Positions 15,959 to 58,080 of a stretch of DNA of 64,000 nucleotides are shown piece after piece. The notes beneath the pieces are model-generated. The model had not been told where the DNA came from. It searched no databases and was given only the letters and a program-made list of their open reading frames with translations. The stretch's first letter is position 1. Every line of letters starts with the position of its first letter. Made by a program: the position numbers and the translations under genes. Origin of the DNA: a virus. Its lineage: Duplodnaviria; Caudoviricetes. Where the stretch lies: the IMG/VR virus record IMGVR_UViG_3300028888_000057; one strand, 5' to 3'.

Positions 15959-16101
15959 TGTTTGTCTCCTTTTTGCTTTCAATTGTCAATGCTGGGAGTC
16001 AAGGCCAATTGAAGCGAATCTTTATATCAACAACCTTACGGTTGGAGATATTGAAAGTCCCGCCGGGTTGCGCATGAAACAGAGGCGTGGCGGGTTCTGT
16101 C

Positions 16102-16177
16102 TGGCTGCCCCTGTGGGGTTTGAACCCACGGCCTTCGGATTAACAGTCCGCTGCTCATCCAGCCGAGCTCAAGGGCA
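16102..16177 (-). tRNA. tRNA-Asn(GTT)
   Basis: 76-nt cloverleaf, anticodon arm CGGA-CTGTTAA-TCCG, GTTCAA T-loop, encoded CCA. Confidence 0.9.
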
Positions 16178-22976: not shown

Positions 22977-23251
22977 AGACAAAAGGTAGGTATAAAAGCC
23001 TGCTTTTTTATTTCAACATACGTGAACAGAAGAGCTCTGAGTAATCAGAGTTCTTTTTTATATATCAACATGCATGAAGTACTCGCTCATGCATTACAAC
23101 CGCAAAATCCCAGCGGTATGAGTGTGGCAATTGGGTGCCGTGCTATACGAAACATAGCTCAAGGCCGAGCAGGCGCATCTTAGCTCAAAGATGCAAATGT
23201 TTATCAATTCTATTTTGTTGTCTCTTAAGTGAGACAGAAAGGAAGGAAACC

Positions 23252-26200
23252 ATGTCTAAGATTAATACTTCTATTGCTGTCGTCTCCGCTCTGATCAACG
23301 AAGGGAAAATTCCGACGAAGGTGGCAAATGCTTTAGCGATTTCTCTGTCTGTAACCGAATTAAGACAGATCGTTGCCAACAATGCTCTTGACCGTCTCAT
23401 GAAGATTGAAGGCATCGGTGAAAAGAGAGCTGCAACCATTATTAAGGTGCTTACTGGAAAGATCCCTCAGCGGCTTTCCGAGAGCCGCACCGGCAAGAAG
23501 ATCAGCACTCGGGAACCGAGCGTAGGGTTCTCCCTTCGTTCGTTCGCTTCCAAGACCGTAATGAAGGAATATGTTCCGTACATCGAAGCGATAAATAATA
23601 TCGAACTGTACAAAGAAACCGAAAACGGTCGTATGCTCGATGACGAAGCATTGCTTGATGCCCGTCAGGCATATGCTGAACTCAAGAAGTTTTCGAACGA
23701 ACTGGACGAAAAGAACTTACCGTTCTCTCTGTTCCAGAACGAAGGAACTATCTCACGGATGAGCCGCAGCATCGGCTCTGACATTTTCGGGATCGATTAC
23801 ACCTCAAAGAAACCGACAACCGCATGGATTACTGTCGAACATGGAATCCAAGAGCTGATCAATTTCAATTGGCACGTTTTCGGCAACACGAAAACCGAAG
23901 CCGAAGCTGAAAAGAATCGCCTGCAGCAGGAAATCGAACACAGACTCGGTAACGCCGGTGTTCGGATGTATGTTGGCAACACGAGCGTAGAAAGCTCAAT
24001 GATCCACTACGGTGGATTCGCAGCTTCAGCATCTCACCAGAAAGACGAGAAGTTGGTTATGGCTGACGCAAAACTTATGAAGCTTCATGAAGAAGCAATC
24101 TGGTTCACTATGAAGATGGCCGAAGTATTTGATCTTGAGATCAACGGAGCGGCAATTTGGAAAATGAGAGCAAACCTTCTTAGACCGATCCGTTGCGGTC
24201 TCAAAATCAAAGGTGGTCGCCAGCTTACGCTGAATGACATCGAAATTAAGGAACCGATCATTGTTAATCGTGTCATCAAGAACGCTCGAAAGATTGGTGA
24301 ACTGAACGAAGAGACGGGTGAAATCTTCGAAGACGGCAAAATGGCTGTTGAAAAGACCTTGGCCGACGGCACTCTTATGTCTACCGTGGAACTCGAACAG
24401 TGGGGTCAGACCACTTCTTATGGCATCAAGGGATGCTCGGGAGACGGAGCCGCTCCGATCAAGTACGCAGCGAAACTGGAAGGGAAAGAAGTTCCTTTGA
24501 TGAAACCCATCCTTATGGATGGGGGATGCTGGAAATTCGATAAAGTCAGATGTTCCTGGGAAGAATTCGTTCGTAGAGCGAACAAGCTCGCCGAACGGTA
24601 TCCGAGTTTGAATAAACTCTGGCTGCTCCGCGAAGGAGACGAGCTGGAAGACGACGTTAAAGTTCGTCGACTGACTCGGAGTCTTATTCAGCAGTGGATC
24701 CATCTCGACGCTCGCGACATCCGTATGATCACTAAGAAGAGCCGCAAGAGCCTGAACAAAATGAAGACCTTAAAGGGTGCTATCAACATGATGGCCGAGA
24801 CTGGACGGGAAGAAAAGAGCCAGTTGGGTAAGGTGTTTGAGAAAGCACCGTGGCTGGTACTTAATCCTGAAGTTCAGAGATATCTCGAAACAAGGTTTGT
24901 CCGGAAACAGAGGGAAGCTGCGGCATGTAAGTTTAAGACGACTGGGTTTTATCCTTACATTCAGGAAGACTTTGTTGCCATCGCCCAAATTTGGGTGTTT
25001 GGTGCCGATTCCAACCGTATGGATCTGGGCGTGTTGAAGGCAGGCGAAATGAGCGTCGCTGATGTGGCACCCAAGCAGAAAATGCTGGCAGTCCGGTTTC
25101 CTGCGAACTATCAGACCGCTGCCGTACGTATCAATGTGCCTTGTCGCGAAGCTTTCAGTTCTTGCAGCAACATCTGCATGATCTCAATCTACGACGATAT
25201 CCTGATCCGTCAGGATGGTGACGTAGATGGTGACGAAATGGCCATCATTCTGGATGAAATCGCAATAGCTGCGACTGAAAGAATGTACGAAGAGTTCAAT
25301 CCTCCGGTTGTCGTGTTCGCACACGGAGGAAAGGCTCCGAAGAAAAAGATCAGCAATCGGGCTGGTCTTATTGAAACTATGTATAATGACTTGTGGAAGG
25401 CCAAGAAGTTTGATGGCGTTGGAAAGTATGCCAATCTGGCAACTCTTTGTTGCCACCTTGCTTCTCTGGCTTATGCCCATGGAGATATGGACGAAGTTAA
25501 GATGCGCCTTGTTCAGATGTCTCTGGCATCGACTGGTGCTATCTTAGCGATTGACCAAGTGAAAGGCAACGCCGTCAGCGACGAGCTGATCGAGCGACTG
25601 GAACAGATCAGCAAGTCTGTCAGGAACCAGTGTCTGAACATGATGCCGTTCACTCAGCAGTTCGTCAAAGGCCTGAAGGCTGATGAAGTTCTGCCTGAAA
25701 GTGATGCTTTGTGTGATCAGATGGCTGGTCTGATCATTCGCGATACCAACGACAAGGAAACCAACGGTTATAAACTTGAAGTTGGTAACGCGCAGTGGAA
25801 CGCAAAGGAAGCGAAGCGGGCTATGCTCGACTTTGGCCTGAGAACGACTTCACTCCGGAACTCTCCTGTTCCGAAGAGCATTCTCGATACACTGGCGGAT
25901 AACTGGTTCAACGACAAGAACAATGCTGATCAGGAGACCTTCCGTCTGATCAAGGCTGGTCAGCCCGTTCAGATGAAGGATCTGGTACTTCTCATGTGGA
26001 GAAATGCATGTGCGTTGGAATTCCGTATGACCGGGGATAATCTGACCGCCAAGCGGGAAGAGTATCTGAAGATTGTACGTGAAATGCTGTATACACAGGC
26101 AACCTCTGCTAAATGGGTTGGTAATGACGGGCACGTATTCACCGATGCCGAAAAGAAAGCTTCTGTCGTGAACGTTCTGGTGTATGATGCACTTAACATG

Positions 26201-26500
26201 AGCGGCAAAGGCAATGGTATCGATGATGACAAGAAGGGATCCTATGCAATCTTCGTACTGAAGGTGTTTGCGAAGGAGATCCTCTGGTGTCTCGAACGGA
26301 ACCATGCAGATGCCAACCTGTTCAACATCAAGTATGCGACTGCTACCGATCTGGAGATCGAAGAGTCCGCAGAAGCGATTGAGAACATTCTGGCCGACGG
26401 GTGGGGCAACATTGACGAAGATCAGGAAGTGTGGTTCTCCGATGAGGATAACTACACAGACTATGATCTTGGCGACAATGACTATGTAGAAGAATGTTAA
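23252..26500 (+). CDS. Single-subunit two-barrel RNA polymerase (YonO/RdRP-like) with N-terminal helix-hairpin-helix
   Basis: Catalytic DGDVDGD, VRFP, LADG..GIKG and AIDQVK motifs; HhH IEGIGEKRA; RBS before ATG 23252. Confidence 0.8.
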   Translation: MSKINTSIAVVSALINEGKIPTKVANALAISLSVTELRQIVANNALDRLMKIEGIGEKRAATIIKVLTGKIPQRLSESRTGKKISTREPSVGFSLRSFASKTVMKEYVPYIEAINNIELYKETENGRMLDDEALLDARQAYAELKKFSNELDEKNLPFSLFQNEGTISRMSRSIGSDIFGIDYTSKKPTTAWITVEHGIQELINFNWHVFGNTKTEAEAEKNRLQQEIEHRLGNAGVRMYVGNTSVESSMIHYGGFAASASHQKDEKLVMADAKLMKLHEEAIWFTMKMAEVFDLEINGAAIWKMRANLLRPIRCGLKIKGGRQLTLNDIEIKEPIIVNRVIKNARKIGELNEETGEIFEDGKMAVEKTLADGTLMSTVELEQWGQTTSYGIKGCSGDGAAPIKYAAKLEGKEVPLMKPILMDGGCWKFDKVRCSWEEFVRRANKLAERYPSLNKLWLLREGDELEDDVKVRRLTRSLIQQWIHLDARDIRMITKKSRKSLNKMKTLKGAINMMAETGREEKSQLGKVFEKAPWLVLNPEVQRYLETRFVRKQREAAACKFKTTGFYPYIQEDFVAIAQIWVFGADSNRMDLGVLKAGEMSVADVAPKQKMLAVRFPANYQTAAVRINVPCREAFSSCSNICMISIYDDILIRQDGDVDGDEMAIILDEIAIAATERMYEEFNPPVVVFAHGGKAPKKKISNRAGLIETMYNDLWKAKKFDGVGKYANLATLCCHLASLAYAHGDMDEVKMRLVQMSLASTGAILAIDQVKGNAVSDELIERLEQISKSVRNQCLNMMPFTQQFVKGLKADEVLPESDALCDQMAGLIIRDTNDKETNGYKLEVGNAQWNAKEAKRAMLDFGLRTTSLRNSPVPKSILDTLADNWFNDKNNADQETFRLIKAGQPVQMKDLVLLMWRNACALEFRMTGDNLTAKREEYLKIVREMLYTQATSAKWVGNDGHVFTDAEKKASVVNVLVYDALNMSGKGNGIDDDKKGSYAIFVLKVFAKEILWCLERNHADANLFNIKYATATDLEIEESAEAIENILADGWGNIDEDQEVWFSDEDNYTDYDLGDNDYVEEC

Positions 26501-30345: not shown

Positions 30346-30420
30346 GGGGCATTAACGCAACGGTAGCGTATCTGCTTTGCAAGCAGAAGGTTGCAGGTTC
30401 AAGTCCTGTATGCTCCACCA
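30346..30420 (+). tRNA. tRNA-Ala(TGC)
   Basis: Cloverleaf, TCTGC-TTTGCAA-GCAGA, G3.U70 pair, CCA end. Confidence 0.9.
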
Positions 30421-30517
30421 CGACTGAGGGCGACGTTAGGGCGGTCGTAAAATAAAACTCTGAACAAGTCACTGTCAAAAGCCGGCAAATGTTTGACATA
30501 CTTGACGTCGTATCTAT

Positions 30518-30588
30518 CGAAGGTGTGGTGTAACGGTAACACGCGTCACCAGGAATGACGAGTCGCAGTTCGAATCTGACATCTTCGA
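30518..30588 (+). tRNA. Atypical or pseudo tRNA-Pro(AGG)
   Basis: Acceptor, D and anticodon stems intact; loop CCAGGAA has C33; T-stem imperfect; no CCA. Confidence 0.5.
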
Positions 30589-30721
30589 CGTGTCGCGACT
30601 GATGTGTGGAGTTTTGATTTCTTTCGGCCATACAGAGAATGACAATCCAATGAAAGAAATAGCGGCATGGTGACAGCCGGTTGAAAAAGAAGGGCTCGCT
30701 ACCCAGTCACCTTATCATTAT

Positions 30722-30808
30722 GGCTCGTTGGCGCAAATGGAAGATTCGCAAGTGATTTAAAATCACTCGGGGCATATCCCCATATCGGTTCGAGTCCGAT
30801 ACGAGCCA
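30722..30808 (+). tRNA. tRNA-Leu(TAA)
   Basis: AGTGA-TTTAAAA-TCACT, long variable arm, GTTCGAG T-loop. Confidence 0.85.
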
Positions 30809-35574: not shown

Positions 35575-35661
35575 GCGAGGGTGGCAGAGTTGGCTGATCG
35601 CTCCGGTCTTGAAAACCGGTGAGCCTACTGGGCTCCGAGGGTTCGAATCCCTCCTCTCGCG
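35575..35661 (+). tRNA. tRNA-Ser(TGA)
   Basis: CCGGT-CTTGAAA-ACCGG, long variable arm, GTTCGAATCC. Confidence 0.9.
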
Positions 35662-35668
35662 CTATTAT

Positions 35669-35745
35669 GCACCCTTAGCTAAGTTGGTCGTAGCTGCGGC
35701 CTTGTAAGCCGTGTAATCAGCTGGGTTCGAGTCCCAGAGGGTGTA
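35669..35745 (+). tRNA. tRNA-Thr(TGT)
   Basis: GCGGC-CTTGTAA-GCCGT; acceptor GCACCCT/AGGGTGT. Confidence 0.8.
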
Positions 35746-39587: not shown

Positions 39588-40037
39588 ATGGATCAGGAAG
39601 CCAAAGCTGATAATGGTAAAGCACGACTGACATTGGTTCCGAGAAAGATTCTTTATGACGTTGCAAGAATCAGAGAGTTCGGAACAAAGAAGTATAAAGA
39701 TCCTGATAACTGGAAAAAAGTAGAAGCTTGGAGATATAAGGACGCGCTGATGCGTCATCTCTGTGCCTATCTTGATGATCCGAAGAGTGTCGATGAAGAG
39801 AGCGGCTTGCCTCATTTGTGGCATGCGGCTTGTAATATGGCTTTCCTTTGTGAGATGGAAGACTGGGAAGAAAAGAAAGAAGAAGTTGTTGAAAAACCGA
39901 AGTGTAAAGATTGCAAGTATTGTTGCGAAGTGAATAGAGGAAATAAAGTTTATATTTGTAAAGAAGTAAGTAAATTTGGCAAGACAATCTTCAATATTGA
40001 AGCGCCGATTTGCGAAAAAGGAACAAGAAAAGAATAA
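39588..40037 (+). CDS. dATP/dGTP diphosphohydrolase-like protein (DUF5664) with C-terminal Zn finger
   Basis: KADNGK..L.LVP, FG.KKY..NW, ALMRH, DEESGLPHL.HAACN..FL. Confidence 0.8.
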   Translation: MDQEAKADNGKARLTLVPRKILYDVARIREFGTKKYKDPDNWKKVEAWRYKDALMRHLCAYLDDPKSVDEESGLPHLWHAACNMAFLCEMEDWEEKKEEVVEKPKCKDCKYCCEVNRGNKVYICKEVSKFGKTIFNIEAPICEKGTRKE

Positions 40038-40058: not shown

Positions 40059-40598
40059 ATGGCTTTAACAAAGATTGATCTGGAAACGATGGATAATCGT
40101 AACTTTCACTACAAGGCTCAATGGAAACCTGATGTGGAAGAGTACTACAAGAAAGCGGATGCCCAACTTGTAGCCGGAGAAATCTATTCACTGGGAGACA
40201 ACCCTTCGACGAAGGAAGTTCTCGAAATGGCCCGAAGTGAAGATAGAGAAATCCATAAGCTGATTGAGTGGGATGACAGTATCGCAGCCGAAAAGCATCG
40301 GATGTATCAGGTCAGAAAGATTATGGGTAATATCCAGATCACTGAGATCAAGCTGAAAAAAAAAGCGCCTCAGAAGATTAAGGTTCCGCTGAGAATGTTC
40401 TACCATCTGAAAGGCGAAGAAGGATATCACGCCACTCCGACTATCATCGAAAACAAAGACTTAAATGACAAACTTCTGGCAACAGCCAAGGCAGAACTGG
40501 CTGCGTTTGTCACTAAGTATTCGATCCTCACAGAGCTTCAGCCTGTTTTCGATGCCATCAGGAGCCTGGATAATCCGCCTGATAATCCGGCGGCCTAA
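40059..40598 (+). CDS. Conserved helical protein, candidate partner of the RAMP/periodic-RNA system
   Basis: EVLEMAR....IH.LIEWDDSIAAEKHR..Q.R motif; its stop is a few nt before RNA unit 1. Confidence 0.7.
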   Translation: MALTKIDLETMDNRNFHYKAQWKPDVEEYYKKADAQLVAGEIYSLGDNPSTKEVLEMARSEDREIHKLIEWDDSIAAEKHRMYQVRKIMGNIQITEIKLKKKAPQKIKVPLRMFYHLKGEEGYHATPTIIENKDLNDKLLATAKAELAAFVTKYSILTELQPVFDAIRSLDNPPDNPAA

Positions 40599-40604
40599 AT
40601 CAGA

Positions 40605-40719
40605 GTGCGGTTAGTACAATAAGGGACTTGTGAGTCCCTACAACAAGAGTACACATCATATTTCAACACATCATAATGCAGGACATCACATTACAAGTCT
40701 CTTGTTGTGCTAATCGCAC
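40605..40719 (+). ncRNA. Periodic guide-like RNA unit 1
   Basis: About 27-bp terminal stem GTGCGGTTAGTAC..CTTGT / ACAAG..GTGCTAATCGCAC with G.U pairs, enclosing AYA-NN pentamers. Confidence 0.8.
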
Positions 40720-40819
40720 AAAAACAGCTTACGATATTATATAAAAGCATTAATAATAACAGTTTATTAAACTTTAATATATCATAACATATCAAAACTC
40801 AAGACATTACAATATACAA

Positions 40820-40934
40820 CTTCGTTGACTCTCATAAGGGCATGTATTATGTCCTACTACAATATAGAGCAATATAGGAAAAACAAGGACAAAACAACAC
40901 AGTACAACACATGCTCTTATTAGAGTCAACGGAG
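40820..40934 (+). ncRNA. Periodic guide-like RNA unit 2
   Basis: Stem CGTTGACTCT..GGGCATGT / ACATGCTC..AGAGTCAACG; 12 in-phase pentamers. Confidence 0.75.
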
Positions 40935-41055
40935 CATTATTCAACAGTTCTGTTGACAATAACAGAACAAATCAATAAAACACTAAAAATTACACAATCA
41001 AACAGTAAAGAACATCATTTATTTTTTGAAAATTATTTTTAAAGGAGAAAATATT

Positions 41056-41724
41056 ATGAAGAAGAACAATAACGAATTTGAACTGCTGAATATCGACGCC
41101 AAGGTTAAACATATGGAAGTCTACATTGAAGGAGACGGAGATCTCGTTCTGAACAAGATGAACGCCCGTACTTTCCGTGAACTGATGAATCCAGATCGTA
41201 AAGCAGCGAAAGAACAGCCGAACGTATGGGAAGACATCATCACTTCCATCCATTGGCGTGATCCTCTGGGAGTAAAGGACACTTATCAGTGTTGTGATGA
41301 AAACTTTATGAATAAGCTCCTGAAGGAAAATGCTCCGTGTATTACCCAGTTCGGTCTCATGCAGAGTCTGAAGCAGGCCGTTGTACGCAATGAGATCGAT
41401 ACCTATAGCACCAAGTTTGACAATGCGGTGAATATCATCGCGGTTAATGGACTTATTCCGGTCGAAATCAGCGGCTGGTCTTTGGACAGTCGTCTGATGA
41501 GTCCGAAGCGTGGAGCCCCGATTTCCGTGCATATCAACCATTTCCATAACTGGAAAGCACATTTTCATGTAGCTTATATGGATAACGTGTACAGTCGGGA
41601 TCAGATTCTGAACGTGATTAACCTGGCTGGATTTGGTCTGGGCATTGGCTCCGGCCGGACTTCTGGTTATGGTCGTTATCATATCACGGCTGTTGAATCC
41701 TATACGGATACTGAAGCCGCTTAA
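41056..41724 (+). CDS. Stand-alone Cas7/RAMP-superfamily RNA-binding protein
   Basis: N-terminal strand V.IEG.GDL, central helix GLMQSLKQA, and C-terminal Gly-rich loop AGFGLGIGSGRTSGYGRY typical of RAMPs; AAGGAG RBS. Confidence 0.8.
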   Translation: MKKNNNEFELLNIDAKVKHMEVYIEGDGDLVLNKMNARTFRELMNPDRKAAKEQPNVWEDIITSIHWRDPLGVKDTYQCCDENFMNKLLKENAPCITQFGLMQSLKQAVVRNEIDTYSTKFDNAVNIIAVNGLIPVEISGWSLDSRLMSPKRGAPISVHINHFHNWKAHFHVAYMDNVYSRDQILNVINLAGFGLGIGSGRTSGYGRYHITAVESYTDTEAA

Positions 41725-41742
41725 TTCTCTGTGTACCAATCC

Positions 41743-41864
41743 GATGTGGTTGGTACCATAGAGAGCTTGTAAGCTCTTAGATCAAGATAGAGTAAATTAG
41801 AGCACGATAGAATAGGACATAAAAGAACAGCACATAACAAGCTTTCTATGGTGCTAATCACATC
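41743..41864 (+). ncRNA. Periodic guide-like RNA unit 3
   Basis: Stem GATGTGGTTGGTACCATAGAGAGCTTGT / ACAAGCTTTCTATGGTGCTAATCACATC; 13 pentamers. Confidence 0.8.
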
Positions 41865-41873
41865 AACATATCA

Positions 41874-41982
41874 GTGCGGTTGGCATTGTTGGAGACTTGT
41901 TCTCCGTAATACAAAACTCTGTATAACAGAAGAATCAACAACAGAACAGCACAGTACAAGTCTTCAATAGTGCCAACGGCAC
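41874..41982 (+). ncRNA. Periodic guide-like RNA unit 4
   Basis: Stem GTGCGGTTGGCATTGTTGGAGACTTGT / ACAAGTCTTCAATAGTGCCAACGGCAC; 11 pentamers. Confidence 0.8.
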
Positions 41983-42064
41983 AAGCACACTATAAGTAAG
42001 CATAATACAGGACAGCGAAACTACAGAACAATGCAGGAGTTTACAAAACAGAAAGTGCCAACGT

Positions 42065-42188
42065 TGCAGTTGGCACGTTAGAGAGCTTGTTTGGCTCTTA
42101 ATGCAAAATAGCTTAGAGCAGAATAAGGTACGATACTACAAAATAGATAACGACACAACAGAACAAGCTTTCTAATGTGCTAATTGCA
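42065..42188 (+). ncRNA. Periodic guide-like RNA unit 5
   Basis: Stem TGCAGTTGGCACGTTAGAGAGCTTGT / ACAAGCTTTCTAATGTGCTAATTGCA; 14 pentamers. Confidence 0.8.
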
Positions 42189-42264
42189 CAAAATACAGAA
42201 CATCAAACTAAAGGACAAAAGAAAACAGATAAGTACAGCACAGCATAATATTTCTGGAGGAAAT

Positions 42265-52451: not shown

Positions 52452-52732
52452 TTATCATAATGAAAACGTAGAAATACTCTTTAGATGTTATTTAAAGGAA
52501 CGATTGGCTGGATGAGTAGGTCGCTGCGGGCAGGTCCTGAAGGCGCCCAGTGGAGTGTCGATCCGCTGGCAGAGAGGCTGGACGGAGGTGGCAGGTCAGC
52601 GCGATCCGACTGAAAACCGGGAAAGTGGAGATTCAAATCCGGAGAAGACGACCAATTGGATCTCGAACGCGTCCAGCGGGCCCTGGAGGAGCACCTCGTG
52701 CGGCAGCGGATTTTCCTTTTAGATTATGATAA
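52452..52732 (+). ncRNA. Retron-like msr/msd RNA, upstream copy
   Basis: Inverted repeat TTATCATAAT/ATTATGATAA, G at 52462 directly after the stem, GC-rich nested stems. Confidence 0.7.
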
Positions 52733-52742
52733 GGATAATAAT

Positions 52743-53867
52743 ATGATTTACATAACAAGAAAAAGAATTGCAATACCCAAACAAGTGACTTTGGAAGACA
52801 TCTTGTTGGACCGAGAAATTCCGGAGTTAAAAGATATAGGAACAAGCACACTGACAAGAGTTTATCCTGAAACTCCAGATGAGCTTAAACATTGTTTCAA
52901 TATTGATTTATTAATCAAATGGTTGAATGACTTCAATGAACGACATGCTGAGCTATTCCAAAGAGATAGAAACAGTATGTATTATCAGTTCAAAATACCA
53001 AAGAAAACAGGAGGATTCAGAGAAATTGATGCTCCTGTCAAAGAGTTGCAGAGCGCGCTAACAGAAGTGGTTAATTTTCTAAAGAATCAATGCAATATTC
53101 TGTATCATACGGCGGCATTTGCCTATATCGAAGAGAGAAGCACGGTAGATTGTGTCAGAAGACATCAGAAAAACAATAGCAATTGGTTCCTGAAACTGGA
53201 TATTAAGAGCTTCTTTCCAAGCACTACGCTGAAGTATCTGATGCACATCAGCAGCATGACGTATCCACTGTCGGAAATCTGCAAGGTTCCAGAGGGAAAG
53301 TCAGCGTTGGAGAGGACATTCAGTCTTGCTTTTAAAGATGGCAAATTGCCACAGGGAACAACATTAAGTCCGTTGATTTCGAACATTGTAATGTTGCCAA
53401 TAGACTTTAAGGTCTTCAATACATTGGCAGCAAGAAAGATTGTATATACTCGTTACTGCGATGATATGATTATCTCGGCTCAGGAGAAGTTTCCGTGGCA
53501 GGAAGTTGTAAAGATTGTCAAAGATGCTTTTACAGAAATGGGAGCACCATATCGGATCAATGACGAAAAGACAAGGTTTGGATCAAAGAAAGGAAGTAAC
53601 TTTAATCTCGGATTAATGCTGAATGGAAACAATGATATCACTGTAGGTTATAAGGCGAAGAAACGCTATAAAGCTGCGCTGTGTTCATTTATCCAGGATA
53701 CAATCCATGGAAATCGTTGGCCGCTGGAAGATGTAACGCATCTGAACGGGCTGACAAGTTACTATCGCTATCTGGAGAAAGAATATTTTGATCAGATATG
53801 GAAAAGAGCAAGCGAAAAGTGGAACGTAGATATTGGTGCTTTGTTTAAATCATATCTATCAACGTAA
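52743..53867 (+). CDS. Retron-like reverse transcriptase (374 aa)
   Basis: IPKKTGG.R.I.AP, AFAY, LKLDIKSFFPS, LPQG..LSP, YTRYCDD, NLGL; no maturase or endonuclease domain. Confidence 0.9.
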   Translation: MIYITRKRIAIPKQVTLEDILLDREIPELKDIGTSTLTRVYPETPDELKHCFNIDLLIKWLNDFNERHAELFQRDRNSMYYQFKIPKKTGGFREIDAPVKELQSALTEVVNFLKNQCNILYHTAAFAYIEERSTVDCVRRHQKNNSNWFLKLDIKSFFPSTTLKYLMHISSMTYPLSEICKVPEGKSALERTFSLAFKDGKLPQGTTLSPLISNIVMLPIDFKVFNTLAARKIVYTRYCDDMIISAQEKFPWQEVVKIVKDAFTEMGAPYRINDEKTRFGSKKGSNFNLGLMLNGNNDITVGYKAKKRYKAALCSFIQDTIHGNRWPLEDVTHLNGLTSYYRYLEKEYFDQIWKRASEKWNVDIGALFKSYLST

Positions 53868-54226: not shown

Positions 54227-57200
54227 GTGTCTTCGGTGAAGACATACCTGCAAGATCAGGTAAGGTTGGTAACGCTGAGCAGTAACGATTTATTTACAGA
54301 TGATGAATATAGTCAATATGTAAAGATCGTGCAGCTAGGCAACACGTACAACGAAAGGATCGGAAAAGGAGAAGACAAGGATACTCTGAAGCCAATTCTC
54401 CGGGAAAAAGAAAAGCTCAAAGAAAAATTGTCAACAACTATTCAGAAAAGAGGGGAGAATCCTCGGGTTGTTAATCTGAACATGGTTGTTCATCATTCCA
54501 AAGACTCTCCATTTCCATTTCCGAAAGGTATTACGTGGAAAAATCTCAAAATCACACGCAGGATTGCAGAATTTTCATGTGAACTGACAAGAGCAATGGG
54601 TCTCAATAATCTGGACTGTACGCTTGATCTGATCGTGATTAAATGGAAAGACTTGAATCTTCTGAAGCAGCTGGTACTGTATGGATTCTATATGCCGATT
54701 CTCCATGGAGACGAAGTTGAAATGAGACACTATCAGTTTCTGACTGCATCAGCCGGACAGTTGAGACGCGACAAAACAATCTTCATTTCGGATGAGATGT
54801 GGAACAAGATTCACAGACGCATCGAGTGTGGAATGAACTGGGAAAGAATCAATGTTCATGGAGGTATCGTCGCAAATAAACTGCTGGCTTATATTGCGTT
54901 GGCTAACAGTGCTACGGATGTCTGGACGGACTTTGATATTGACCGGTGTATTGTCATAGACGATTTCGAGGCTGAAGTAACTGATCGAATGATGTATATT
55001 AAGGAAGATTATACATATGAGATCGGTAAACGAACGGTAATGATCAACCACACTGATGGATGTGGAATGATGCTGCCAACAGTCTCGAAACTGAATTTTA
55101 TGACAAGACTGCCATTCATCAAAGGATTGCTTGTGAGCTTTGATTATATTAAATTCTGCAAAGTCAATAATGTTCCTCCGATTATCAAGGATATTTATGG
55201 CAAAGAACATGACCTGATTAAAGAAAATATACAGATAATCTTTACGAAGAGTATGTTCAAAGCCTATAAGTATTTTGAAAGCTTCGAAGAGTACAAAGCA
55301 GAATTTAAAGCATGTGGCGCACAGGCCGGAATTACCAATTATGAAGAAGAGTATATTCCGGATGCGACATTGAATTATCAATTCATTCAAACACTAGTAA
55401 ATTTTACTGATGAGGAGATACAACAATTCATCAAAAATGATCATGATAAGATTGAAAAGCTTGGAACCAACAAAGATTCAATGTTGAACACGTTGGGAGC
55501 CAGAAAGGAATCTGACAATCCTTATAAAGCGGCGCTGGCATACTATCCGGAACTGTTGAGAGAAGCGTATAGCAAAGAAACGATTCGAGCGATCAGGAAG
55601 AGTATGATGCTGGATGCAAAGTCTGGAAAGATTCACTGCGAAAACAAGAGATTGTTTGCAGTACCTGATCTCTACGCCGCCTGTGAGCGGTGGTTTATGG
55701 GGATCGAAGAACCAGAAGGATTGTTAAGGGGAAATGAAATAGCTTGTCTGCCGTATAGAAGGCATGATAAAGCAGATGTTCTAAGAAGTCCGCATTAACA
55801 TAGGTGCCTTTACACAGTAATGTGTATCGAAAAATGTGGTTAACCTGTAAATACAGGGTGTCGCTGAAAAGCGGCTAACGGAGAACGAACTAAACGATAG
55901 AGTTTGGAGGTGAGAAAATGAGCAAGCTTAAAGATTTAACTGGACGGATGTTTGGATTTCTTTACGTTCAAAGAAGAATGCCTAATTATGTTCAAGAAAA
56001 CGGAAGAACAAGAACGAGATGGCTAACAACGTGTCTCTTGTGTGGAAAAGCTTATGTTGCAGATGGTAGTCATTTGCTGCACGGTGATATTATTAGTTGT
56101 GGCTGTTTTAAGAACATGAAAAGCGCATTAAGAGGTCAAGAATATACAGGCGTCCAGAAACCAATTCGAGATTTGACCGGCATGAAATTTGGATATCTTA
56201 GAGTAATTGAAAGATGCGAAAATTTTGGGCCAAAAACAGCATGGTTATGTTTGTGTGAGAATTGTGGCAGTTATACAAAGGTTCGCTCGAATCATCTCCT
56301 TCGAGGATTAGTATCCAGTGATGGCTGTATAAAGTCTGTAAGAGAAGAGCAAATGGCAAAATGGTTTAATGAACACAAAATTCCATTTGAAAGAGAATAT
56401 ACTTTTCCAGACTTATTAGGCGAAGGTGGAAGTAATCTAAGATTCGATTTTGGTTTAATAGACAAGAAAAATAATTTAATTTGTTTAGTTGAATATCAAG
56501 GAGAACAACATGGTTTAGATAAAACTGGAGAGTTTGGCAGACAACAAAGAGAACAAACTGACAAACAAAAAATTGATTATTGTTTAATAAACCATCTTGC
56601 TTTTCAAAGTGTTTGGTACAATAGAGATTTTGAAGAGCAAATGCAAGAAATCGAAAAGTTCTATCGCAAGTCAACTGCCGTGCCAAACCGGAAAACCGGA
56701 AGGTGTATCGACTATCCCGAGAGGGAGTAGGGTTCAAGTGAAACTCTTGAATTCGAAACGCCACACAACCCGTAAGGGCTGATGACATAGTCAACTCCGC
56801 TACGAAATATCGGGAAACCGACGGTACGAAGGTTAGCAATGGAACATTTTATCTGCCCAATTGTTCATGATCAGAAAATATATGATTGGTTTTATACAAA
56901 CGGAGTCGTAACTTCTTGTCACAGCATGGTATCGAGGGTGCTCCAGTTCGATGTCGATGGAGATCAACTTAACGTAATTGTTGATCCGTTATTCATTAAG
57001 GTTGCTGAAAAGAATATCAAAGAGTTTGACGTGGTTCCATTATTCTATGACGCAGAGAAAGGTGATGCTACTCTGATGTCAAAGGAGGCACAGTTTGAAG
57101 GTCTGAAGATTGCCCATGAATATTCAGGTATCGGAGAAATATCAAACATGCTGACAAGACTATGGAATCGAAATACTCAGGACAGGATTGCTGCCGCATT

Positions 57201-58080
57201 TCTTTGCAGATTTAACAACGCTGTGATCGATGCAGCAAAGATTGCCAAGATCAATCACTATAATCAGTATCCTGAAATTGAAAAACGTATCAACAAAGCT
57301 ATAGGAGGCAAGAACTCACGTATGCCTGCTTGGTTCAAGTACTCTAAGAATCAGAGGAAAAATGGCAATGAACACAAGCAGTATGCAAAACCCAATAACT
57401 CAACAATGAACCGAATATCTTCTTACTTTGATGATATTGGAAAGATCAACATGAATTTTGCTGGGGTGCCGTCATTCAACTGGCAAATGCTTCTCAGCGG
57501 GCCGTGTACAAATACATGGCCGGAAATTCCAATGCTGTTCTGTGAGATGGATAATGTTAATATTTCTAACGTAATCGAATCTCATGACATTCCTTATGCA
57601 TCTGAGAAACAGAAGATCAATGGTTATTCCATGATGGCAGAAATGATCAAGGATGAAATCATTGATCAGTTTGGTTCGTTAGAAACTGCATATCCGTATG
57701 TAGTAAAACATCTGTTTGCAGGAGAAGGTATGAATAAAGCCGCTCACAAACAGATGTTCTGGCGCGTGTTTGGCAATATTGCGCTGGAAAACTTAAAGAA
57801 AAATGTTAACAACTGTGATGTTTGTCCGGATTGTAAGATGAGAATCCCATCGTGGGTGAAGGATCATTATTGTGTGAAGAATACATCCGGCTTCTATGAA
57901 TGTATAGATTGCCATAAGATGTGTGAAAGAACTTCTTCATCGCAATATCGATGCGCAGATTGTCAAAATAAATATCGACTAACACAAAGAAAACTGGCTC
58001 AGAGAAACCGTCGAAACCAATTGAAAGAGGATGAAGAGAAACGTATTGTTTCCTGGCTATCGTCCTTCAGGGAGATATAA
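54227..58080 (+). CDS. YonO-like single-subunit RNA polymerase in two exons: 54227-55795 and 56833-58080 (938 aa)
   Basis: TASAGQLR, HTDGCGM, R.PFIKG, spliced RSPH/LAMEH, catalytic FDVDGD, IDAAK. Confidence 0.88.
55796..56832 (+). mobile_element. Group I intron in the RNAP gene
   Basis: P1 GCAU/GUGC, GACUA and GACAUAGUC elements, terminal G; removal restores the frame. Confidence 0.85.
55918..56730 (+). CDS. Intron-encoded homing endonuclease (Zn repeats plus Vsr/PD-(D/E)XK-like domain)
   Basis: Two DLTG..FG.L.V..W.C.C.CG..SCGC repeats; LRFDF..VEYQGEQH..D..K. Confidence 0.8.
   Translation: MSKLKDLTGRMFGFLYVQRRMPNYVQENGRTRTRWLTTCLLCGKAYVADGSHLLHGDIISCGCFKNMKSALRGQEYTGVQKPIRDLTGMKFGYLRVIERCENFGPKTAWLCLCENCGSYTKVRSNHLLRGLVSSDGCIKSVREEQMAKWFNEHKIPFEREYTFPDLLGEGGSNLRFDFGLIDKKNNLICLVEYQGEQHGLDKTGEFGRQQREQTDKQKIDYCLINHLAFQSVWYNRDFEEQMQEIEKFYRKSTAVPNRKTGRCIDYPERE

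What the first reader, a model, noticed from the sequence alone, without database searches (positions are those of the whole stretch)
40622..42098. Each unit carries a conserved alternative hairpin that competes with its long stem
In all five units the inner part of the 5' arm can instead pair locally with the bases just downstream: AGGGACT-tgtg-AGTCCCT, AGGGCAT-gtatt-ATGTCCT, AGAGC-ttgtaa-GCTCT, GGAGA-cttgt-TCTCC, AGAGC-ttgtttg-GCTCT. The sequences differ but the pairing is kept, and the pentamer phase starts right after this hairpin. Inference: the long stem is a precursor (for example an RNase III substrate) and the short hairpin becomes the 5' handle of the mature guide, or the two folds form a loading switch.
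Basis: partly seen in the sequence, partly recalled or inferred. Interest (0 to 1): 0.7.

Follow-up and report, generated by a model that had tools for sequence, protein, structure and literature searches.

The report
Competing hairpin in phage VIPR guide RNAs
Each guide-RNA gene of this phage's VIPR system (a CRISPR-related, RNA-guided DNA silencer first described in 2026) can fold in two mutually exclusive ways, a long closing stem or a small 5' hairpin, and this double fold is kept in relatives from dozens of other phages, so it probably governs how the guide is matured or loaded.

Summary
Observation confirmed. All five quoted hairpins are at the stated places (-6.2 to -10.5 kcal/mol). Each uses the inner 5-7 nt of the 5' arm of a 27-33 bp stem, so the two folds exclude each other.

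The locus is a divergent VIPR system (bioRxiv 10.64898/2026.04.26.720920). It has a lone Cas7-like RAMP homologous to the solved SUSP1 Vipr, a conserved upstream partner gene, and tracts of 10-13 pentamers. The constant triplet is A-H-A, not the published GGY.

The hairpin holds across the family. In 140 non-redundant units from 50 loci, 76% fold to -5 kcal/mol or better. Controls gave 27% (partner swapped), 25% (partner shuffled) and 3% (mirror site at the 3' arm). It persists where Vipr is only 29-37% identical.

The long stem is also real and acts in RNA: G.U outnumbers A.C 491:95.

Naked RNA prefers the long stem by about 10 kcal/mol. Without the 3' arm, the hairpin is in the predicted fold of 71% of units.

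Best reading, which is inferred: the stem is a precursor or locked state, and the hairpin caps the 5' end of the guide once the stem is cut or opened. No RNA ends could be mapped and no targets were found.

This scan has noted VIPR systems on other DNA before. I class this as a new variant of a known kind.

The parts
40059..40598 (+). vap-like partner gene (179 aa, P0001), ending a few bases before unit 1
   Evidence: Homologues sit just upstream of the RNA array in 80 of 81 related loci. It matches phrog_15946 of unknown function and no Pfam family. The AF2 model has pLDDT 85.7 with no convincing fold match. It is not similar to SUSP1 Vap1.
40605..40719 (+). Unit 1: long stem with arms 40605-40633 and 40691-40719; competing hairpin 40622-40639; pentamer tract about 40638-40697
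   Evidence: unit -45.1 kcal/mol, z -7.8; hairpin -10.5
40759..40823 (+). Linker pentamer tract between units 1 and 2
   Evidence: At least 17 of 20 A at pentamer positions 1 and 3. Linkers across the family show the period of 5.
40820..40934 (+). Unit 2: long stem with arms 40820-40852 and 40902-40934; competing hairpin 40837-40855; tract about 40854-40913
   Evidence: unit -41.5 kcal/mol, z -10; hairpin -8.2
40962..41016 (+). Pentamer tract after unit 2, upstream of vipr
41056..41724 (+). vipr: lone Cas7-like RAMP (222 aa, P0002) with a C-terminal glycine-rich loop GxGxxxxxGxG
   Evidence: AF2 pLDDT 93. Foldseek top hits are Cmr4, Csm3 and type VII Cas7, E about 1e-6. hhalign to SUSP1 Vipr gives probability 98% and E 1e-13. 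The family profile hits PDB 36pp_D 'SUSP1 Vipr protein' at E 2.4e-13. Pfam RAMPs hit is weak. The family has 2270 relatives, none named.
41743..41864 (+). Unit 3: long stem with arms 41743-41770 and 41837-41864; competing hairpin 41762-41777; tract of 13 pentamers
   Evidence: unit -47.3 kcal/mol, z -9.7; hairpin -8.5
41874..41982 (+). Unit 4: long stem with arms 41874-41900 and 41956-41982; competing hairpin 41891-41905; tract of 11 pentamers. The 3' arm can also form its own small hairpin, GTGCC-aac-GGCAC.
   Evidence: unit -45.2 kcal/mol, z -7.1; hairpin -6.2
41983..42064 (+). Linker between units 4 and 5, with a weaker pentamer tract
42065..42188 (+). Unit 5: long stem with arms 42065-42092 and 42161-42188; competing hairpin 42082-42098; tract of 13 pentamers
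   Evidence: unit -49.7 kcal/mol, z -8.4; hairpin -9.1
42180..42254 (+). Pentamer tract after unit 5, ending at the ribosome-binding site of the next gene
   Evidence: 19 of 20 A at pentamer positions 1 and 3

Best explanation
The five units are guide-RNA (vrRNA) genes of a divergent VIPR system. Vipr, a lone Cas7-like protein, should polymerise along each tract of 10-13 pentamers, one protomer per pentamer. It would hold the constant A-H-A triplet and present the two variable bases to read DNA. This step is inferred from the published SUSP1 system.

In this subfamily each tract is closed by a 23-33 bp RNA stem. The inner 5-8 nt of the 5' arm can pair instead with the bases just downstream, giving a small G-rich/C-rich hairpin next to the first pentamer.

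Shown here:
- Both pairings exist and exclude each other.
- Both are kept by covariation across the family.
- The long stem is favoured in naked RNA.
- The hairpin is the predicted fold of the nascent RNA, before the 3' arm exists.

Inferred:
- The hairpin forms first during transcription.
- The long stem then closes. It is either a dsRNA-nuclease site (RNase III type) that cuts the array into loop guides and linker guides, or a lock.
- Once the stem is cut or pulled apart by the growing Vipr filament, the hairpin re-forms and caps the 5' end of the guide. This would be the counterpart of the 3' pseudoknot cap of SUSP1 vrRNAs.
For: System identity:
- Cas7 fold.
- Homology to SUSP1 Vipr.
- Period-5 signal: identity 0.47 at lags 5, 10 and 15 against 0.25-0.36 at other lags. 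Pentamer profile: A 79%, C/T/A, A 84%, N, N.
- 78% of tracts have no frame slip; median 13.4 pentamers.
- The vap-like gene is present in 80 of 81 loci.
- Phage context: portal and terminase.
- Published VIPR description.

Hairpin:
- Present in all 5 window units.
- 76-78% of family units against 3-27% in controls.
- Own partner -8.3 against swapped partner -5.0 kcal/mol.
- Covariation score 0.41 against 0.28 in shuffles (0 of 500 reach it) and at most 0.25 when slid.
- Present in loci whose Vipr is only 37% and 29% identical, the latter with a different constant triplet.

Long stem:
- z-scores of -7 to -10.
- Inner duplex -17.4 with own partner against -5.7 swapped.
- G.U to A.C ratio 491:95, p = 3e-65, so the pairing acts in plus-strand RNA.

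Tuning and order of folding:
- 5'-arm G.U pairs peak at base pairs 7-10 from the inner end, which is the hairpin's 5' strand.
- The same G pairs with C locally in 82% of cases but distally in only 68%.
- The hairpin is in the MFE of the RNA lacking the 3' arm in 71% of units.

Geometry: the SUSP1 filament has 6 protomers per 72 A turn and a capped end.
Against: - No RNA-end, expression or cleavage data were available.
- In naked RNA the hairpin costs a mean of 10.5 kcal/mol. It still costs 4.7-6.9 kcal/mol after trimming the stem to its inner 10-14 nt. Something must therefore actively open the inner stem.
- The pentamer register relative to the hairpin end is not fixed, which weakens a ruler role.
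- Linker tracts have no equivalent universal hairpin. Only 37% of 3' arms form one of their own, against 12% of shuffles.
- The published cap is at the 3' end, not the 5' end.
- No natural targets were found under the 1-nt-skip rule, so DNA targeting by this clade is unproven.
- Related loci share ancestry, so counts are not fully independent, even after the 70% identity filter.
Confidence: 0.5

Rival explanations
1. The hairpin only helps folding. It transiently hides the G-rich inner 5' arm during transcription, so that this segment does not mispair with the tract or with neighbouring units. It is then displaced for good by the 3' arm. The long stem would be the functional structure of the mature RNA, and the hairpin would have no role in the loaded complex.
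For: - The long stem is favoured by about 10 kcal/mol.
- The hairpin is predicted in the nascent RNA.
- The hairpin loop and outer arm give the 3' arm a free foothold for strand displacement.
- The hairpin sets no fixed pentamer register.
Against: - A straight Vipr filament over 10-17 pentamers should not tolerate its two ends being tied by a stem. This is inferred from SUSP1 geometry.
- G.U wobbles weaken exactly the contested part of the stem. That is unexpected if the stem only has to win.
Confidence: 0.22
2. The hairpin is a specific binding site for a protein: the first Vipr protomer, the vap-like protein or a host factor. It would nucleate or bound the filament. The long stem would serve only for stability or to insulate neighbouring tracts, with no processing.
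For: - The hairpin has a semi-conserved G-run/C-run composition and a C-poor loop.
- It abuts the first pentamer.
- The vap-like gene is strictly syntenic.
- In SUSP1 a terminal structure caps the filament, and a consensus tail is treated as what makes a vrRNA competent for Vipr complex formation.
Against: - Hairpin sequence is only 55-67% conserved per position, and stem and loop lengths vary.
- This reading does not explain why the hairpin must overlap the stem.
Confidence: 0.18
3. The local complementarity is a relic of how the units arose, for example a tract inserted into an older hairpin with a short duplication. Alternatively the units are DNA-level elements (cruciform or recombination sites), and the small hairpin has no function of its own.
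For: The hairpin's 3' strand and the inner 3' arm are near-repeats of each other, since both complement the same 5' segment.
Against: - Pairing is kept while sequences differ in 140 non-redundant units, and it is specific to each unit's own partner.
- The mirror site shows nothing (3%).
- G.U outnumbers A.C 5:1, and the strand-specific pentamers point to RNA.
- The feature survives down to 29-37% Vipr identity.
Confidence: 0.05

Closest known systems
VIPR type II system of Escherichia phage SUSP1 (Vipr + Vap1 + vrRNAs; bioRxiv 10.64898/2026.04.26.720920 and 10.64898/2026.04.26.720927)
   Same: - Phage-borne lone Cas7-like RAMP of about 20-25 kDa, homologous in its C-terminal half.
- A small partner gene.
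- Several roughly 100-nt RNAs on both sides of vipr, each with 9-16 pentamers made of three constant and two variable bases.
- A structured element at one end of the tract.
   Different: - The constant triplet is A-H-A, not GGY.
- The SUSP1 base-reading G-loop residues D177 and W178 align with Ser and Gly here; R179 is kept.
- SUSP1 vrRNAs have a conserved 3' hairpin-pseudoknot tail and no closing stem. Here the tract is enclosed by a 23-33 bp stem with a competing 5' hairpin.
- Unit sequences differ from each other.
- The partner protein is unrelated to Vap1.
Non-canonical VIPR arrays reported from a genomic language model (bioRxiv 10.64898/2026.10.21.760802: GAC/NN, CAC/NN, WGT/NN, TGH/NN) and the NNNGG, YNNNG and NNNNG variants of the discovery paper
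   Same: Period-5 arrays beside Vipr-like folds, with constant triplets other than GGY.
   Different: An A-H-A triplet, a stem-closed tract and an alternative hairpin are not mentioned in the text I could read. The figures were not available, so I cannot exclude that one of the pictured clusters is this clade.
Class 1 CRISPR crRNA with a Cas7 backbone (for example type III Csm3 or Cmr4)
   Same: The same protein fold polymerising on a guide RNA. A short structured or fixed handle flanks the variable part.
   Different: - There are no identical direct repeats, no spacers, and no cas6, cas5 or cas10 genes.
- The period is 5 with a sequence-fixed triplet, rather than 6 with a flipped base.
- Processing would be at long imperfect stems, not at repeat hairpins.
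RNase III-processed long stems in phage and bacterial polycistronic RNAs (established knowledge, for example rRNA precursors and T7 early RNA)
   Same: Imperfect stems of about 2-3 helical turns (median 27 bp) that flank functional RNAs within one transcript.
   Different: Cleavage is untested here. The conserved alternative hairpin overlapping the stem is not a general feature of such sites.

Membership tests
VIPR system | Lone RAMP (Vipr) homologous to characterised Vipr proteins | tested here: met
   The family profile hits PDB 36pp_D 'SUSP1 Vipr protein' at E 2.4e-13. hhalign to SUSP1 Vipr gives probability 98.1%. The AF2 model matches Cas7 proteins (Cmr4, Csm3, type VII) at E about 1e-6. 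A 27%-identical relative (L085) sits beside a GGY-like array.
VIPR system | Glycine-rich loop and thumb of RAMPs | tested here: met
   A GxGxxxxxGxG motif lies at residues 196-206, with G192, G196 and G206 invariant. There is a weak Pfam RAMPs hit over residues 128-208. The model has a long beta-hairpin at 140-164 in the region aligned to SUSP1 Vipr. The thumb is assigned by position only.
VIPR system | No CRISPR array or other cas genes in the locus | tested here: met
   No identical direct repeats were found. Neighbouring genes have no cas families. No CRISPR repeat family reached Rfam gathering score in the 64 kb window.
VIPR system | vrRNAs made of about 9-16 tandem pentamers with three constrained and two variable positions | tested here: met
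   Window tracts have 10-13 pentamers. The family median is 13.4, and 78% of tracts are in a single frame. Positions 1 and 3 are A in 79% and 84% of pentamers; positions 4-5 are variable.
VIPR system | Constant triplet GGY, the canonical consensus | tested here: not met
   The triplet is A-C/T/A-A and the tracts are G-poor at 13.5% G. The literature allows 'a related consensus'.
VIPR system (type II architecture) | Conserved 3' tail (hairpin plus pseudoknot) after the tract | tested here: not met
   The SUSP1 tail is visible. Here the tract is followed by the 3' arm of a unit-specific long stem, and only 37% of 3' arms form a hairpin of their own.
VIPR system | Adjacent accessory (vap) gene | tested here: met
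   A conserved gene lies upstream of the array in 80 of 81 loci. It is unrelated to SUSP1 Vap1 and its fold is unknown.
VIPR system | Variable dinucleotides match natural DNA targets with a 1-nt skip | tested here: inconclusive
   There was no excess of matches for any skip rule in 1.4 Mb of held sequence. Exact-pattern scans found 0 hits in viral and metagenome contigs. In genomes there was 1 chance-level hit.
VIPR system | vrRNAs are expressed and co-purify with Vipr | not testable with these tools
RNase III-type processing stem | Double-stranded RNA of about two helical turns or more | tested here: met
   Gapless stems have a median of 27 bp (5-95%: 23-33). RNA-level pairing is shown by G.U outnumbering A.C.
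RNase III-type processing stem | Staggered cleavage within the stem in vivo | not testable with these tools
   No RNA-end data.
Terminator/antiterminator attenuator | One of the alternative hairpins is followed by a U-run | tested here: not met
   No terminator-like site was found at any unit on the plus strand. The hairpins are followed by A/C-rich tracts.

The most novel reading that the evidence does not exclude
A large, unnamed VIPR subfamily (over 2000 proteins in metagenomes) builds its guides on a different plan from the published one. Its constant triplet is G-free (A-H-A, or AUU in a distant member). Each tract is locked in a long stem. A conserved 5' hairpin takes over when Vipr loads or a dsRNA nuclease cuts. 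That would amount to a protein- or nuclease-triggered RNA switch that licenses guides, caps the filament at the opposite end from SUSP1, and lets one array yield both loop guides and linker guides.
Probability: 0.35. Interest if true: 0.65.

Novelty: new variant of a known kind. Interest (0 to 1): 0.55.

Why it matters
VIPR is a months-old class of very small programmable DNA binders. Only the SUSP1 and P. fulva type has been dissected, and how vrRNAs are matured and loaded remains largely undescribed.

This locus and its roughly 80 relatives show a second guide architecture, with a conserved two-state fold at the exact junction between handle and guide. If the switch is real, it defines what must be kept when such guides are reprogrammed. 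It would also show how arrays are cut into guides without Cas6 or ribozymes. The different constant triplet and G-loop residues offer a natural experiment in how Vipr reads its repeat.

Tried and rejected
- Rfam: no family matched the units. There was only a sub-threshold miRNA-precursor hit.
- blastn and tblastn against GenBank phages: no match.
- A covariance model built from 15 close units recovered only 28 matches, 5 of them on the wrong strand, so it served only as a small side test.
- Target hunting with the published 1-nt-skip rule found nothing above shuffled controls in held sequence. Four exact scans of viral and metagenome contigs found nothing. Of the two genome scans, one found nothing. 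The other gave a single hit in a Sulfurimonas MAG, at the expected chance rate and without the flanking dinucleotide.
No whole genome is held for this window.
- The vap-like protein has no Pfam family, no Foldseek match and no VIA-align match above Z 4.
- A pyrimidine-motif triple helix (purine-rich 5' segment plus its two pyrimidine partners) was rejected. Both partners are antiparallel Watson-Crick complements, not parallel Hoogsteen strands.
- A pseudoknot that keeps the hairpin while its 4-7 nt loop pairs with the 3' arm was rejected on steric grounds.
- A TRAP-like ring wrapped by the loop was an early idea. It was dropped once Vipr homology was established.
- Local hairpins within the outer arms are enriched only at the 3' arm (37% against 12% of shuffles) and are not universal.
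- No promoter or terminator signal above chance was found.
Full report
**The observation.** The window holds five units on the plus strand (U1 40605-40719, U2 40820-40934, U3 41743-41864, U4 41874-41982, U5 42065-42188). Each has a 27-33 nt imperfect inverted repeat closing a 49-70 nt A/C-rich interior. Folded alone they give -6.2 to -10.5 kcal/mol, with z-scores of -2.4 to -3.2. In every unit the hairpin's 5' strand is the inner part of the 5' arm, so hairpin and long stem cannot coexist. The whole units fold as long stems at -41.5 to -49.7 kcal/mol, with z-scores of -7 to -10.

**What the locus is.** Between U2 and U3 lies a 222-aa gene (41056-41724) ending in a GxGxxxxxGxG loop.
- Its AlphaFold model (pLDDT 93) matches the Cas7 backbone proteins of type III and type VII CRISPR systems.
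- A profile of 40 relatives hits the solved 'SUSP1 Vipr protein' (PDB 36pp) at E 2.4e-13. It aligns to the SUSP1 gene product with 98% probability.
- Vipr is the protein of VIPR systems, described in 2026 preprints that I found by literature search.
- As published, VIPR is a lone RAMP that polymerises on vrRNAs of 9-16 pentamers. It holds a constant GGY and presents the two variable bases, which read DNA with a one-base skip.

The interiors of the units here are such tracts.
- Base identity at lags 5, 10 and 15 is 0.47, against 0.25-0.36 at other lags.
- The pentamer profile is A (79%), C/T/A, A (84%), N, N.
- The window tracts parse into 10-13 in-frame pentamers.
- The linkers between units carry tracts as well.
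- No tract occurs anywhere else in the 64 kb or on the other strand.

The window is a tailed phage, with portal and large terminase genes. A 179-aa gene upstream (40059-40598) has homologues in the same position in 80 of 81 related loci. It has no recognisable family or fold and is unrelated to SUSP1 Vap1. The SUSP1 G-loop residues that read GG (D177, W178) align with Ser and Gly here, which fits a different constant triplet.

**Is the small hairpin more than chance?** I fetched 81 related viral loci and located long-stem units with a script. It found 274 units in 81 of 82 sources; 195 were distinct at score 19 or more. A 32-nt window spanning the inner 5' arm and the next 20 nt was then folded.

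| Set | Test window | -5 kcal/mol or better |
|---|---|---|
| 195 distinct units | own 5' side | 78% |
| 195 distinct units | mirror site at the 3' arm | 3.6% |
| 195 distinct units | downstream bases shuffled | 27% |
| 140 units, 50 loci (under 70% alike) | own 5' side | 76% |
| 140 units, 50 loci | mirror site | 3% |
| 140 units, 50 loci | shuffled | 25% |
| 140 units, 50 loci | downstream segment from a unit of another locus | 27% |

For own against swapped partner, p = 6e-31. The pairing is therefore specific to each unit's own sequence.
- A small covariance-model alignment agrees: covariation 0.41 against 0.28 in shuffles (0 of 500 reach it) and at most 0.25 when the partners are slid.
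- The hairpin is G-rich on its 5' strand and C-rich on its 3' strand. It has a C-poor loop of mostly 3-6 nt, and only 55-67% conservation per position.
- It persists in a locus whose Vipr is 37% identical (three units, -4.5 to -9.9 kcal/mol).
- It persists more weakly (-3.2 kcal/mol) in one at 29% identity, whose pentamers are AUU/NN.
- A 27%-identical relative has a GGY-like continuous array without closing stems.

**Is the long stem real, and in RNA?**
- The inner 14 nt of the two arms form a duplex of -17.4 kcal/mol with their own partner, against -5.7 with a swapped one.
- Within stems delimited by Watson-Crick pairs only, G.U-type positions outnumber A.C-type positions 491 to 95 (p = 3e-65). 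Both types arise by transitions, so this asymmetry means selection on the plus-strand RNA rather than on DNA.
- Stems are 23-33 bp long, with a median of 27.

**How the two folds relate.**
- Of the 5'-arm bases used by the hairpin, about 95% are also complementary to the 3' arm. This is a three-way match.
- In the naked unit the long stem wins. Forcing the hairpin costs a mean of 10.5 kcal/mol, and only 3 of 189 minimum-energy folds contain it.
- Without the 3' arm, which is the state of the nascent transcript for some 60-90 nt, the hairpin is in the predicted fold of 71% of units.
- After trimming the stem to its inner 14 or 10 nt, the cost falls to 6.9 or 4.7 kcal/mol.
- G.U pairs with the G in the 5' arm peak at base pairs 7-10 from the inner end (13-29%, against 0-10% at the other positions). 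This is the hairpin's 5' strand.
- The same G pairs with C in 82% of local pairs but in only 68% of distal pairs. The contested part of the stem is thus systematically the weaker one.
- The first pentamers of the 3' arm often still fit the A-H-A pattern (ACAAG or ACATG in the window). Vipr binding there would itself unzip the inner stem. This last point is an inference.

**Mechanism proposed.** These steps are inferred.
1. The hairpin folds first during transcription.
2. The 3' arm then closes the long stem.
3. The stem is either cut by a dsRNA nuclease of the RNase III type, or opened by the Vipr filament. Cutting would release both loop tracts and linker tracts as separate guides.
4. The hairpin re-forms as a 5' cap next to the first pentamer.

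The published SUSP1 filament rises about 12 A per protomer and is capped by a terminal RNA structure. A 10-17-pentamer filament could therefore not keep its ends tied by a stem.

Points against this model:
- no RNA-end data;
- no fixed register between hairpin and pentamers;
- no universal hairpin for linker tracts;
- the cap is at the opposite end from SUSP1;
- no natural targets were found, so DNA targeting by this clade is unproven.

**Comparison and novelty.** The locus meets the defining features of VIPR that could be tested: Vipr homology, RAMP hallmarks, no CRISPR parts, pentamer vrRNAs, a partner gene and viral context. It departs in three ways: the constant triplet, the absence of the 3' pseudoknot tail, and the stem-closed, two-state unit.
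- The readable text of the VIPR preprints mentions staggered arrays, ribozyme-interspersed arrays and single vrRNAs. It also mentions other triplets (NNNGG, YNNNG, NNNNG, GAC, CAC, WGT, TGH).
- It does not mention A-H-A, closing stems or an alternative hairpin. The figures were not available to me.
- The protein family is large but unnamed: 2270 clusters, all from metagenome sources in the listed rows.
- This scan has already noted many VIPR systems on other DNA, and one un-followed note on a relative of this protein next to a long hairpin.

I therefore class the finding as a new variant of a known kind. The functional reading is plausible but untested.

**Caveats.**
- Units were detected with G.U-tolerant, gapless scoring.
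- Hairpins were defined with RNAfold.
- Related loci share ancestry, so the counts overstate the number of independent events.
- The energy model ignores proteins and folding kinetics.

Noticed in passing
window 42055-42076: Just upstream of unit 5, GTGCCAAC-gttgca-GTTGGCAC forms a further local hairpin that uses the outer 5' arm of unit 5. This is a third alternative pairing. On the minus strand the same bases score as a terminator-like site.
   Followed up: partly
window 41968-41982, 40706-40719, 42175-42188 (3' arms of U4, U1, U5): The outer 3' arms share a near-palindromic motif, GTGC-yaay(n)-GCAC, that can fold on its own. Across the family, 37% of 3' arms do so against 12% of shuffles, but only 15% of 5' arms. 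It could cap the following linker tract.
   Followed up: partly
L083:3735-3965: A relative with 29% Vipr identity keeps the long stem and has tracts in both loop and linker, but its pentamers are AUU/NN instead of A-H-A/NN.
   Followed up: partly
L085:690-930: A relative with 27% Vipr identity has a continuous G/T-rich GGY-like pentamer array upstream of vipr, with no closing stems. It links this family to canonical VIPR arrays.
   Followed up: no
window 16058-16094 (-): An Rfam abiF RNA match just above gathering score (39.9 against 37 bits) lies directly beside a tRNA gene at 16105-16177.
   Followed up: no
window 52656-53867 (+), with 23135-26500, 54227-55798 and 56839-58080: A polymerase/reverse-transcriptase-like gene (phrog_2825, phrog_1423) lies near three genes that all hit phrog_8308. 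This could be a diversity-generating retroelement with its targets.
   Followed up: no
window 30346-30808 and 35575-35745: Two clusters of phage tRNA genes; there are six tRNAs in the window in all.
   Followed up: no
window 39588-40037 (+): A dATP/dGTP diphosphohydrolase N-terminal domain protein (PF18909, E 1e-26) lies just upstream of the vap-like gene.
   Followed up: no
window 41779-41800 and 42110-42125: In U3 and U5 the tract contains AGAGC, the same pentanucleotide as the hairpin's 5' strand. In the long-stem fold, the freed 3' strand of the hairpin is predicted to pair with it. This may be chance in AGA-rich tracts.
   Followed up: no
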